Source: a virus
Taxonomy: Duplodnaviria; Heunggongvirae; Uroviricota; Caudoviricetes
Direction: 5' to 3' (one strand)
DNA length: 5,296 nt
IMG/VR virus record: IMGVR_UViG_2609459856_000012
Of the stretch, positions 1-3,000 are shown in pieces (the stretch's first letter is position 1; the number at the start of each line of letters is the position of its first letter). The position numbers are program-made.

Positions 1-3000
1 TTTTGAACATTTCAGGCTATTTTTCTCGCGTTAGGTTCCCGCACAGGTTCCCACGTTTTATGGGAACCCGAAATAACGAGGTCGTGTAATGGCGTACTAT
101 AACATAGAGAAACGACTAAAATCCGATGGCACACCACGCTATCGCTGTAATGTGATTATCAAAGAAAAAGGTGTTATCACTTACAGGGAAAGCAAAACAT
201 TCCCTAAACATGCCCATGCCAAAACATGGGGTACACAGAAAGTGATGGAATTAGATCTATATGGCATTCCATCATCAAATGCAGTTGACGGACTTACAGT
301 CCGTGACTTACTACACAAATATTTAAATGACCCAAATGCCGGAGGTAAGGCAGGCCGTACTAAAAGATATGTGCTGGAACTGCTTATGGATAGTGACATC
401 TCCGCGATCAAACTATCCGAACTGACAGAAAATGACGTAATTGAACATTGCAGGCTAAGAAACAACGCTGGTGCAGGTCCAGCAACAGTCAGCCACGATG
501 TAAGTTATCTTGGCAGTGTTCTGGATGCGGCCAAACCTGTATACGGAATTAATTACACATCAAACCCGGCGAAAAGCGCTCGTCCATATCTACTTAAACT
601 TGGTTTGATTGGTAAATCAAACCGTCGTAATCGTAGACCAGCATCTGATGAACTGGACATGCTCATTGAAGGCCTTCAACAACGATCTACTCATAAATGC
701 TCAAAAATTCCGTTCGTTGATATCCTCAAATTTTCTGTGTGGTCCTGTATGCGAATCGGAGAAGTATGCCGGTTACGATGGGAAGATCTCGACCAGGAAC
801 AAAAATCTATACTCGTAAGAGACAGGAAAGATCCACGCAAAAAGGAAGGCAACCACATGAAAGTAGCCTTGCTTGGGGAAGCCTGGGATATCGTCCAACG
901 ACAGCCCCAAAAATCGGAATTCATTTTTCCATATAACAGCACTTCTGTTACTGCGGGATTTCAGAGGGTAAGAAGCAAATTAGGTATTAAAGATCTGCGA
1001 TACCATGATTTGCGTAGAGAAGGGGCAAGTCGCTTATTTGAGGCTGGTTTTAGTATTGAGGAAGTCGCCCAAGTTACAGGGCATCGTTCATTAAACGTGC
1101 TATGGCAGGTATATACCGAACTGTATCCGAAATCTTTACATAATCGTTTTGAAGAGCTCCAAAAGAGCAGAAATAAGACCTCTTGACACTGTTTATCCAT
1201 ACAGTTAAAAATAATACTGTATACAAACACAGTATAGAGGGACTTTTATGCGTATTGAAATCTGCATAGCCAAAGAAAAAATGACTAAAATGCCAACCGG
1301 TGCTGTGGATGCGTTAAAGGAAGAATTAACCCGACGCATCAGTAAACGTTATGACGATGTAGAGGTGATCGTAAAAGCCACCAGCAACGATGGCCTTTCT
1401 GTTACGCGCACCGCCGATAAAGATTCAGCTAAAACTTTTGTTCAGGAAACTCTGAAAGATACCTGGGAGTCTGCTGACGAGTGGTTTGTTCACTAATTGG
1501 CACGTAAAATCAGTAACGGCTGGAAATCATTCAATACTCGCACTATCGAAAGTTAACCAGCCAGCCGCAGTATCCTATCATGACAAGTTACTGCGGCTTT
1601 TTACTTTTTATATTTAACGGATCAACATCCAGATCAGCAGACACGCCACCACCGGCACAGCAAAATCCATCAGGCTTGCTACATCCCACGCGCGTAGATC
1701 AAAACCGCCCCACCACGGCATATTCATTCGCTTGCCATGCCCGAACATTTCGATCCAGCGATATTCTGCCTGGGTGTGTTCACGCGCAATGAAGAACGTA
1801 CAACCGGCTATCGCCCCGTAAGCCCAGTTCCCGGTAAAAAGACCAATCAGTAGCTGCGCAGCCACAGCACAAAGCGCATGAAGGAAAGGTGTTATATCCA
1901 TTTTCATCCTACCCAATAAAACGGGGCGCTCGGCCCCTTAATATTATTTAGACGCAAGCGCCGCCTCAATTGCAGATAATCTTTGTCTTAATTCTGCGTT
2001 TTCTTCTTCCAGTGCTGTTATTCTGTCGTCTGACTCTCTGGCTACCTGAACAAGCAAGCCAGTAACACCAGAATAATCTACTGTGTAATAACGTTCACCT
2101 TCTTCACCTTCCGATCCGCTCGCACCGTCCTGATATTTCATTGCGGAACCTACAACTTCTGGGATTGCTTCCAGAGCTTCCTGTGCAATGACACCAGCAT
2201 AGGGCATACCGTTTTCTTTAAGCGTGTATGTATAGCCGTTCATTTTACGGATGCGGTCGGTTGCATTATCGATCACCTGAATGTTGTCTTTCAGATCCCG
2301 GTCGGAATGCTGGTTAAATGCGGTGGCATGACATGCACCATTAACGCTTAACATATAGGTGTTATCGGTATTTTTCTGCGCATAGAACATATAAGCGCCA
2401 CCATCAACACCGACTTCATAAACAACAGGACGGCTAGAATTTCCCCATAATAACGTCGACACACCAGAATAAGCCGTACCCTGTGTGTTTAGTGTCATGG
2501 TCGACCCGTGATTAGCATATTTGATCTGCAATGAGTCTGTATTATCAAACTTAATAAGCGCGTTACTTCCCCGCACACCATACGACATGAGACAGTTCCC
2601 CATCTTAAGGTAACCATCACTGCCTGGAAAAATTAAAGTTCCTCCGTAAAGATCACTAAAGTCCCAAAAGATACCTTTTGTCCCGTTATGTGTGACGATC
2701 CTCGTCATTGTATCTTTAGTACCATCAATATTTTTTCTGGTATATATGTCACTATAAGCGTTTTCCGTTTCACCAGTCTTATTTGACAAGTGAATCTTAC
2801 CGCTAAATATAGTTCCAGTGGTCGGCAATGTCTTTTGATTATAGATTACATTGCAATAACTATTCCATGTTGTTTTATTGTCTACATAAGATTTTGTTGC
2901 GTAGCTTCCTTGATCGTTTTTTAATTTGCTAACGTCGGATTTTAGCGTTTTGATATCATCAGGAATTACTGTCGATGTAGCCATTTTTCTTCCTCACATC

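What the first reader, a model, noticed from the sequence alone, without database searches (positions are those of the whole stretch)
1947..2306. Predicted autoproteolytic chaperone domain with assignable cleavage site in the 346-aa tail protein
The motif ...AFNQH-SDRDLKDNIQ... followed by ...YTVDYSGVTGLLVQVARESDDRITALEEENAELRQRL matches the conserved start and the C-terminal helical region of intramolecular chaperone domains, which are released after trimerisation of endosialidase-type spikes and L-shaped fibres. This places the predicted cleavage immediately before Ser227 (minus-strand codon at 2304-2306). That makes the mature receptor-binding part only about 226 residues, unusually short for such proteins.
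Basis: partly seen in the sequence, partly recalled or inferred. Interest (0 to 1): 0.45.

Follow-up and report, generated by a model that had tools for sequence, protein, structure and literature searches.

The report
Self-cleaving chaperone domain, short tail fibre
The 346-residue prophage protein is an ordinary member of a very common family of short phage tail-fibre subunits: its last 120 residues are a folding-helper domain that should cut itself off before Ser227 once the fibre has trimerised.

Summary
The ORF at 1944-2984 (minus strand) encodes 346 aa. Ser227 is the codon at 2304-2306, and residues 227-346 map exactly to 1947-2306.

Evidence that this is a Peptidase_S74 intramolecular chaperone (IMC):
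- Pfam PF13884 matches residues 227-278 from profile position 1 (E 6e-14, 52.5 bits against a cut-off of 22).
- Ser227 and Lys232, with the serine-to-lysine spacing of the T5 pb1 pair Ser1264/Lys1269, are invariant in 52 homologues.
- The site aligns with the cleavage site reported for phage S16 gp37 (DLNVS^SDRRIKK).
- The domain ends in a confidently predicted long helix.

The predicted products are 24.8 kDa (mature) and 13.2 kDa (released). Cleavage itself is inferred, not shown.

Context: the window is the dusA-proximal end of a lambdoid E. coli prophage. The gene is the last of a conserved trio: the side-tail-fibre (Stf) C-terminal module, a ~92-aa protein, and a short S74 fibre. The trio is also found in Nonagvirus and Drexlerviridae phages. 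The short fibre has a conserved N-terminal adaptor peptide, a variable middle, a T4 gp34-like β-prism and the IMC. Phage mEp460 has the same tip and IMC fused to its 1202-aa Stf.

"Unusually short" is overstated. 29 of 130 representative relatives are as short or shorter. Sister alleles at the same position leave mature parts of only 115 aa, or about 98 aa in phage JK16.

Verdict: a new member of a known kind, of low interest.

The parts
1944..2984 (-). Complete ORF of the 346-aa short tail-fibre subunit (stop codon included)
   Evidence: phrog_4563 matches 346/346. More than 190 homologues.
2892..2984 (-). Residues 1-31: conserved N-terminal adaptor peptide (MATSTVIPDDIKTLK...) and a short predicted helix or coiled coil
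   Evidence: The same N-terminus heads all 78 downstream ORFs next to the 93-aa gene, on two unrelated protein bodies. It is also found in Nonagvirus and Drexlerviridae phages. Helix at residues 9-29 in the model.
2493..2891 (-). Residues 32-164: variable beta-rich domain, the candidate receptor-binding part
   Evidence: Only 7-31% identity to the distant homologues, against 76-84% at the start of the chaperone domain. Mosaic break against phage 2G7b gp24. The densest DNA divergence from the closest genome lies here. Beta strands with pLDDT around 81 at residues 58-118.
2307..2492 (-). Residues 165-226: conserved beta-prism / beta-helix segment like that of T4 gp34, ending at the scissile bond His226|Ser227
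   Evidence: The profile of 52 homologues matches T4 gp34 residues 959-1023 (PDB 4uxe and 5nxf, E 3e-9). This gp34 region is a beta-prism set within a triple beta-helix (PMC5537660). W180, G181, R185 and E190 are invariant.
1947..2306 (-). Residues 227-346: Peptidase_S74 intramolecular chaperone domain, predicted to be released (13.2 kDa)
   Evidence: PF13884, E 6.3e-14. Aligns to the S16 gp37 chaperone domain. 76-84% identity even to the ~40%-identical homologues. Fragment masses.
2304..2306 (-). Ser227 codon: predicted nucleophile and first residue of the released domain
   Evidence: Profile position 1. Invariant in 52 homologues. Equivalent to T5 pb1 Ser1264 and to the second serine of S16 DLNVS^SDRRIKK.
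2289..2291 (-). Lys232 codon: predicted general base of the Ser-Lys pair (serine + 5)
   Evidence: Invariant. Same spacing as Ser1264/Lys1269 in T5 pb1.
1953..2075 (-). Residues 304-344: long C-terminal helix, the presumed trimeric coiled-coil core of the chaperone
   Evidence: AF2 helix 304-344, pLDDT 88-92. The T5 chaperone domain has a central trimeric coiled coil.
1923..1937 (-). Terminator-like hairpin (GGGGCCGAGCGCCCC followed by a T run) just after the stop codon
2994..3275 (-). 93-aa acidic protein always found between Stf and the short fibre; function unknown (assembly factor or adaptor?)
   Evidence: Conserved in all related loci. Also present in PhiR40_1, which lacks the S74 gene. 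No family or structure match.
3275..5296 (-). C-terminal two thirds of the side tail fibre Stf; the reading frame stays open to the right end of the window. It contains Ala/Ser/Thr-rich repeats and a ~430-aa distal module like the head-spike fibre of the Rhodobacter gene transfer agent.
   Evidence: Open frame. NF048003, E 9e-14. PDB 6tb9, E 6e-8. Aligns with the 791-aa gp22 of 2G7b, which has the PF08400 N-terminal domain.

Best explanation
The ORF encodes the short distal (or accessory) subunit of a two-protein side tail fibre of a lambdoid E. coli prophage. It has four segments. Residues 1-31 are a conserved adaptor peptide plus a short coiled coil. Residues 32-164 are a variable beta-rich domain and the likely receptor-binding part. 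Residues 165-226 are a conserved beta-prism like one in T4 gp34. Residues 227-346 are a Peptidase_S74 intramolecular chaperone. Proposed mechanism, by homology with K1F endosialidase, T5 pb1 and S16 gp37: three chains associate through the C-terminal helices of the chaperone domains. This brings the preceding beta structure into register so that it folds as an intertwined trimer. Only then does Lys232 activate Ser227, which attacks the His226-Ser227 bond. The 13.2-kDa chaperone trimer is released and a 24.8-kDa mature subunit (residues 1-226) is left on the virion. Shown here: domain identity, the catalytic pair, the position of the site, the modular conservation pattern and the gene neighbourhood. 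Inferred: trimerisation, actual cleavage, receptor binding by the variable domain, and docking of the N-terminal adaptor on the Stf distal module (perhaps with the 93-aa protein).
For: PF13884 at residues 227-278, E 6.3e-14 and above the cut-off. S227, D228, L231 and K232 are invariant in 52 homologues. The sequence aligns with the chaperone domain of S16 gp37 (PDB 6f45; E 1.2e-3 for the single sequence, 2.5e-7 for the profile), and its reported cleavage site DLNVS^SDRRIKK matches AFNQH|SDRDLKD. T5 pb1 uses Ser1264/Lys1269 with the same spacing, and its S1264A mutant blocks cleavage. The released part would be 120 aa, against 113 in S16 and 133 in T5. The C-terminal helix 304-344 has pLDDT 88-92. 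The segment before the site matches the T4 gp34 beta-prism (E 3e-9). Residues 114-337 are 48% identical to residues 945-1174 of the 1202-aa Stf of phage mEp460, whose S74 domain starts at Ser1059, so the window protein is the same tip on a separate polypeptide. The trio of Stf module, ~92-aa gene and S74 fibre recurs in lambdoid 2G7b, Nonagvirus ESCO3, Drexlerviridae JK16 and two metagenome contigs. All 78 downstream ORFs in viral contigs share the adaptor peptide, on two different bodies. The conservation profile is anchor, then variable, then conserved chaperone.
Confidence: 0.85

Rival explanations
1. The protein is not a fibre subunit. It is a trans-acting assembly chaperone for the upstream Stf, occupying the position of lambda tfa. 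This is what the database label 'endosialidase chaperone' suggests.
For: The gene lies downstream of stf, where lambda has tfa. Phages ESCO3 and JK16 annotate their homologues as 'endosialidase chaperone' or 'chaperone of endosialidase'.
Against: Those labels are only the Pfam name of PF13884. All characterised S74 domains act in cis on the polypeptide they end. The 226 residues before the domain include a fibre-type beta-prism and are 48% identical to the distal end of the mEp460 Stf. PhiR40_1, deposited as a complete phage genome, has a 76%-identical Stf module and no S74 gene. No Tfa-type family matches.
Confidence: 0.05
2. The domain is present but no longer cleaves. It stays attached as a structural cap, or the gene is a decaying prophage remnant.
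For: No experimental data on processing exist. Truncated and frameshifted copies exist in databases, for example 227-aa and 189-aa forms and the deletion variant P0039. The uncleaved T5 S1264A mutant cannot compete for the receptor (PMC4690869 introduction), so loss of cleavage would matter.
Against: The Ser-Lys pair and the surrounding SDRDLK motif are invariant across 52 homologues. The ORF in the window is intact, with a ribosome-binding site and a terminator. The chaperone domain is the most conserved part of the protein, as expected under selection.
Confidence: 0.07
3. The protein is a self-cleaving fibre but does not sit on Stf. It attaches elsewhere on the virion (tail tip, collar or head), or removal of the chaperone exposes a docking face for a further adhesin, as in S16 gp37-gp38.
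For: Attachment to Stf is inferred only. In S16, release of the chaperone uncovers the gp38 docking surface. PhiR40_1 shows that the Stf module and the 92-aa gene can exist without the S74 fibre.
Against: The protein has no PF08400 or other virion-attachment domain. Its adaptor peptide always occurs directly after the Stf module and the ~92-aa gene, in three phage groups. mEp460 carries the same tip covalently on its Stf. No gp38-like gene follows; the next ORF, of 95-100 aa, has two hydrophobic segments and lies beyond a terminator-like hairpin.
Confidence: 0.2

Closest known systems
[quoted passage not shown]
   Same: Both are C-terminal S74 domains. Both have the serine nucleophile with a lysine five residues later. 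Both are predicted to cut immediately before the serine. Both have a central helix for a trimeric coiled coil. Both follow a trimeric beta-structured fibre tip.
   Different: pb1 is 1396 aa with a 1263-aa mature part and a 'bullet' receptor domain; here the mature part is 226 aa. The released domain is 120 aa rather than 133. There was no direct sequence hit to pb1 in the PDB searches. The folding-sensor arginine could not be assigned.
Salmonella phage S16 long-tail-fibre protein gp37 chaperone domain (PDB 6F45)
   Same: It is the closest solved relative by sequence. The cleavage motif S^SDRRIKK aligns with H^SDRDLKD, and the released part is of similar size (113 against 120 aa).
   Different: S16 is a T4-like myovirus. 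After cleavage, gp37 is capped by the separate adhesin gp38; no gp38-like gene is present here.
Side tail fibre of lambdoid phage mEp460 (1202 aa)
   Same: The int-dinI-stf backbone is the same. Residues 945-1174 are 48% identical to window residues 114-337, and Ser1059 aligns with Ser227.
   Different: In mEp460 the tip and chaperone are fused to the Stf shaft. In the window they are a separate protein with its own adaptor N-terminus, and Stf ends instead in a head-spike-fibre-like module followed by a 93-aa protein.
Branched lateral tail fibres LtfA/LtfB of T5-like phages DT57C and DT571/2 (PMC4728585, PMC10713586)
   Same: In both, a second, shorter fibre protein has no virion-attachment domain. 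In both, a short conserved N-terminus is thought to dock on the first fibre protein, and a C-terminal pfam13884 domain has a predictable cleavage site.
   Different: Both LtfA and LtfB carry S74 domains, whereas here only the short protein does. No small intervening gene is described for DT57C. The adaptor peptide found no T5-like or phiEco32 proteins by tblastn. LtfB (at least 767 aa) is much longer.
K1F endosialidase C-terminal chaperone domain (PDB 3GW6), the founding member of Peptidase_S74
   Same: Same Pfam family, and the same proposed Ser-Lys autoproteolysis that depends on correct trimer folding (as cited).
   Different: The endosialidase is a large enzymatic tailspike. The window protein has no detectable enzymatic domain.

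Membership tests
Peptidase_S74 / C-terminal intramolecular chaperone domain (PF13884) | Significant match to the family profile, above the curated cut-off | tested here: met
   E 6.3e-14, 52.5 bits against a cut-off of 22; residues 227-278 on profile positions 1-57 of 58.
Peptidase_S74 / C-terminal intramolecular chaperone domain (PF13884) | Nucleophilic serine at the start of the domain, with a lysine five residues downstream | tested here: met
   S227 and K232 are present and invariant in 52 homologues. The spacing is that of T5 Ser1264/Lys1269.
Peptidase_S74 / C-terminal intramolecular chaperone domain (PF13884) | The domain is the C-terminal end of the protein, about 110-150 residues, with a helix able to form the central trimeric coiled coil | tested here: met
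   120 residues to the stop codon. Helix 304-344 at pLDDT 88-92. Related proteins have 99-132 residues after the serine (interquartile range).
Peptidase_S74 / C-terminal intramolecular chaperone domain (PF13884) | Preceded by a trimeric beta-helix or beta-prism fibre or spike domain, which is the chaperone's client | tested here: met
   Profile match of residues ~165-225 to the T4 gp34 beta-prism (E 3e-9). 48% identity to the distal end of mEp460 Stf.
Peptidase_S74 / C-terminal intramolecular chaperone domain (PF13884) | Three-dimensional fold of the domain as in PDB 3GW6, 4UW8 and 3GUD | tested here: inconclusive
   [not shown]
Peptidase_S74 / C-terminal intramolecular chaperone domain (PF13884) | Autoproteolytic release after trimerisation, blocked by a Ser-to-Ala change | not testable with these tools
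   Needs expression of the wild type and the S227A mutant.
Two-protein (branched) lateral tail fibre, DT57C LtfA/LtfB type | Adjacent fibre genes: the first has the virion-attachment N-terminus, the second lacks it and has a short conserved N-terminal docking segment | tested here: met
   The Stf homologues in 2G7b and in locus L006 carry PF08400. The 346-aa protein has no such domain. Its first 15-31 residues are conserved across alleles and phage groups. In the window itself the Stf N-terminus lies beyond the right end.
Two-protein (branched) lateral tail fibre, DT57C LtfA/LtfB type | Both fibre proteins end in an S74 domain | tested here: not met
   The Stf here, and 2G7b gp22, end in a head-spike-fibre-like module with no PF13884 match.
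Two-protein (branched) lateral tail fibre, DT57C LtfA/LtfB type | Docking segment related to the N-termini of LtfB and phiEco32 gp15 | tested here: not met
   tblastn of residues 1-37 against 50,697 phage records gave 41 records, all of them Escherichia, Shigella or 'Enterobacteria' phages. The 40 listed are lambdoid, Queuovirinae or ~50-kb siphoviruses; none is T5-like or phiEco32.
Two-protein (branched) lateral tail fibre, DT57C LtfA/LtfB type | Physical attachment of the second protein to the first | not testable with these tools
   Only gene order and modular conservation are available.
Lambda Tfa-type tail-fibre assembly protein (rival) | Match to a tail-fibre-assembly family profile | tested here: not met
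   No such family among the Pfam, PHROG or NCBIfam hits of the 346-aa or the 93-aa protein.

The most novel reading that the evidence does not exclude
The Stf distal module, the ~92-aa acidic protein and the short S74 fibre form one portable three-gene cassette. The 15-30-residue N-terminal peptide (MATSTVIPDDIKTLK...) is a universal plug that docks interchangeable, self-cleaving mini-fibres (mature parts of roughly 100, 115 or 226 aa) onto the lectin-like end of the side fibre. The uncharacterised ~92-aa protein would act as the adaptor or assembly factor. This would give lambdoid, 9g-like and T1-like siphoviruses a bipartite side fibre with two receptor-binding elements, of a kind that differs from DT57C LtfA/LtfB.
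Probability: 0.4. Interest if true: 0.4.

Novelty: new member of a known kind. Interest (0 to 1): 0.2.

Why it matters
It matters only modestly. The result turns a 'tail fiber domain-containing protein' into a concrete, testable processing prediction: 38.0 kDa should give 24.8 + 13.2 kDa, with a cut at His226|Ser227 that S227A or K232A should block. It also defines module boundaries (adaptor 1-31, variable 32-164, conserved prism and chaperone). Those boundaries are what one needs to swap receptor-binding cassettes in lambdoid or T1-like phages, or to produce the mature fibre for receptor studies. The family is very common in E. coli prophages; single 90%-identity clusters stand for 906 and 2132 sequences. 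A correct model of how it is made and mounted would therefore help host-range prediction. The chaperone domain itself adds nothing new to what is known about Peptidase_S74.

Tried and rejected

2. A single-chain 'linked trimer' of residues 150-346, with an alignment concatenated in the same way, was built to obtain a trimer model.

4. A literature search for 'side tail fiber' together with 'S74' found nothing. I found no paper on this particular lambdoid three-gene arrangement.

5. My first motif scan (SD[RK].[LIVM]K) classed the 234-aa allele as lacking an S74 domain. Pfam then showed PF13884 at residues 116-172 with the variant motif SSIRYK, so that reading was corrected.

6. I considered a gp38-type adhesin docking after cleavage, as in S16. 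I rejected it as the main model because no such gene follows.
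Full report
**Observation**

The window carries a 346-codon ORF on the minus strand at 1944-2984. Translation gives ...GACHATAFNQH-SDRDLKDNIQVIDNATDRIRKMNGYTYTLKENGMPYAGVIAQE... and ends ...YTVDYSGVTGLLVQVARESDDRITALEEENAELRQRLSAIEAALASK.
- A GAGGA ribosome-binding site overlaps the stop codon of the upstream gene.
- A G+C-rich hairpin with a T run follows the stop codon at 1923-1937.

**Is it more than chance?**

Yes.
- Pfam PF13884 (Peptidase_S74, 'chaperone of endosialidase') matches residues 227-278 to profile positions 1-57 of 58. 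The score is E 6.3e-14 and 52.5 bits, against a curated cut-off of 22.
- The protein matches PHROG 4563 ('tail fiber protein') over all 346 positions.
- It has more than 190 homologues in the 5.8-billion-protein collection. All of those that carry a source name are from Escherichia. The nearest is 94% identical and stands for 906 sequences.
- In an alignment of 52 homologues at 34-94% identity, S227, D228, L231 and K232 are invariant.
- An exhaustive HMMER search of 1.84 billion representatives found 9771 proteins at E <= 1e-3.

**Where the window comes from**

The window is the integrase end of a lambdoid E. coli prophage inserted next to dusA. The gene order is:
- integrase (89-1186, plus strand);
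- a DinI-like gene (1248-1496, plus strand);
- a small ORF with two hydrophobic segments (1614-1916, minus strand);
- the 346-aa gene;
- a 93-aa gene (2994-3275, minus strand);
- the side tail fibre gene stf, whose frame stays open to the right end of the window.

The best complete E. coli genome is 96.8% identical over the whole window. The differences cluster at 2401-2800, inside the 346-aa gene, and there are none at 2201-2400.

**The chaperone domain and the cleavage site**

The closest solved relative by sequence is the C-terminal part of phage S16 gp37 (PDB 6f45). The single sequence gives E 1.2e-3 and the 52-sequence profile gives E 2.5e-7. In that alignment AFNQH-SDRDLKDNIQ lies on DLNVS-SDRRIKKDIK. 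PMC7917993 states that S16 gp37 is cut between the two serines of DLNVS^SDRRIKK and that the last 113 residues are the intramolecular chaperone.

For T5 pb1, PMC4690869 gives the following:
- the scissile bond is Thr1263|Ser1264;
- Ser1264 is activated by Lys1269;
- an arginine of a neighbouring chain makes cleavage depend on correct trimer folding;
- the S1264A mutant is not cleaved;
- the 133-residue domain has a central trimeric coiled coil;
- the serine leaves with the chaperone.

The window protein has the same serine-to-lysine spacing (S227/K232). Its domain is 120 residues long. A long C-terminal helix (304-344) is predicted with pLDDT 88-92. The predicted products are residues 1-226 (24.8 kDa) and 227-346 (13.2 kDa), from a 38.0-kDa precursor.

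**What precedes the chaperone**

The profile of the family matches T4 gp34 residues 959-1023 (PDB 4uxe, 5nxf, 5nxh; E 3e-9) with residues ~165-225. According to PMC5537660 this part of gp34 is a beta-prism set within a triple beta-helix. That is the kind of intertwined trimer these chaperones fold.

A block-wise identity profile against five ~40%-identical homologues shows the classic fibre pattern:
- residues 1-30: 39-56% identity;
- residues 31-180: 7-31%;
- residues 181-225: about 40%;
- residues 226-270: 76-84%;
- residues 271-300: 40-48%;
- residues 301-330: 65-79%.

Phage 2G7b gp24 is identical over most of residues 1-35, strongly diverged over 36-120, and about 95% identical from residue 121 on. 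I therefore read residues 32-164 as the exchangeable, probably receptor-binding, part.

**The neighbourhood and how the protein is probably mounted**

The same three-gene arrangement recurs: a fibre protein ending in a ~430-aa module that starts LQPLPDVWIPFNDSLDMITGF, then a ~92-aa acidic protein, then a short S74 protein about 10 nt further on. It is found in:
- lambdoid phage 2G7b;
- Nonagvirus ESCO3;
- Drexlerviridae phage JK16;
- two metagenomic contigs whose S74 proteins are only 40-44% identical to the window protein.

The Stf distal module resembles the head-spike fibre of the Rhodobacter gene transfer agent (NF048003, E 9e-14; PDB 6tb9, E 6e-8).

A scan of viral contigs with the 93-aa protein returned 80 loci. 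In all 78 that have downstream DNA, the next ORF starts MATSTVIP[DGE]DI[KT]TLK. That peptide heads two different bodies: the 346-aa type (about 43 loci) and a 234-aa type (about 28 loci). The two share only residues 1-31. The 234-aa type also carries PF13884, from residue 116. The adaptor peptide is found in lambdoid, Queuovirinae and Drexlerviridae phages.

Phage mEp460 shares the int-dinI-stf backbone. It has a single 1202-aa Stf with PF08400 at the N-terminus and PF13884 from Ser1059. Its residues 945-1174 are 48% identical to window residues 114-337.

The window protein is thus the distal tip plus chaperone of an mEp460-type side fibre, moved onto a separate polypeptide with its own plug. 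The closest characterised parallel is T5 Ltf against DT57C LtfA/LtfB. There the second protein docks through its N-terminal ~45 residues, and both proteins carry pfam13884 (PMC4728585; PMC10713586). The BASEL papers also note that lateral fibres of small siphoviruses may consist of one protein or of two or more, and they describe distal fibres with chaperone domains mounted on proximal fibres.

Attachment of the short fibre to Stf is my inference from gene order and modular conservation; it has not been shown. PhiR40_1, deposited as a complete phage genome, has the Stf module (76% identical) and the 92-aa gene but no S74 gene. This argues that the 92-aa protein belongs with the Stf module. It also argues that the short fibre is an optional addition, not a chaperone that Stf needs.

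**'Unusually short'**

Among 130 complete-looking representative relatives with the S-x4-K motif, the pre-serine part has a median of 450 aa. In 29 of them (22%) it is 226 aa or shorter. Alleles at the very same locus position leave 115 aa. In JK16 the figure is about 98 aa, where the PF13884 match from residue 99 scores 21.9 bits against a 22-bit cut-off. So 226 aa is short beside endosialidase, pb1 or gp37, but ordinary for this class. The shortness is explained by the split architecture.

**Rivals**

- Trans-acting chaperone for Stf (the literal reading of the database label). This is unlikely. The label is just the Pfam name. The N-terminal 226 residues are fibre-like and homologous to the mEp460 fibre tip. 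PhiR40_1 lacks the gene.
- Non-cleaving or decaying copy. This is unlikely given the invariant catalytic pair and the intact ORF. Truncated copies do exist elsewhere.
- Attachment elsewhere on the virion, or capping by a further adhesin as in S16. This cannot be excluded. No gp38-like gene follows; the next ORF, of 95-100 aa, has two hydrophobic segments and lies beyond the terminator-like hairpin.

**Verdict**

The protein is an ordinary, uncharacterised member of the Peptidase_S74 tail-fibre class. Public annotation already flags its homologues with PF13884. Interest is low (0.2). The only mildly new angle is the portable three-gene cassette with a universal N-terminal plug and an unexplained ~92-aa partner.

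Noticed in passing
[not shown]
   Followed up: partly
window 1614-1916 (-): A 95-100-aa ORF with two hydrophobic segments (residues 3-24 and 74-95 of the 95-aa form) lies just downstream of the terminator-like hairpin, at the prophage end next to dinI and int. It matches phrog_1443, of unknown function. It looks like a moron-type membrane protein (perhaps superinfection exclusion).
   Followed up: partly
window 3275-4573 (-): The distal ~430 residues of Stf (starting LQPLPDVWIPFNDSLDMITGF) resemble the head-spike fibre of the Rhodobacter gene transfer agent (NF048003, E 9e-14; PDB 6tb9, E 6e-8). The module is 66-98% identical across three phage groups, so it moves as a unit.
   Followed up: partly
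window 4573-5296 (-): The stf frame is open all the way to the right end of the window and encodes Ala/Ser/Thr-rich repeats (KTSETNAK...). The ORF listing nevertheless listed a 432-aa TTG-start ORF. The other ORFs listed across 4452-5285 (for example 4522-5208 minus and 4845-5285 plus) lie in other frames or on the other strand of this repeat region. One of them is annotated as a 'hypothetical protein' in a RefSeq genome, where stf is also split into several features.
   Followed up: partly
L089 3295-6903 (phage mEp460 Stf): The sister phage mEp460 has a single 1202-aa Stf with the S74 domain fused at Ser1059. Its last ~230 residues are 48% identical to the window protein. This is a natural pair of fused and split versions of the same fibre tip.
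   Followed up: yes
L016 3792-4496 and about 27 other viral contigs: An alternative 234-aa allele sits at the same locus position. It has the same first 31 residues, a long coiled coil, and a divergent S74 domain from residue 116 (motif SSIRYK), which leaves a mature part of only 115 residues.
   Followed up: partly
window 2401-2800: Against the closest complete E. coli genome, 44 of the 172 differences fall in these 400 bases (the variable domain of the short fibre). There are none at 2201-2400 (the start of the chaperone domain). This points to recombinational mosaicism inside the gene.
   Followed up: partly
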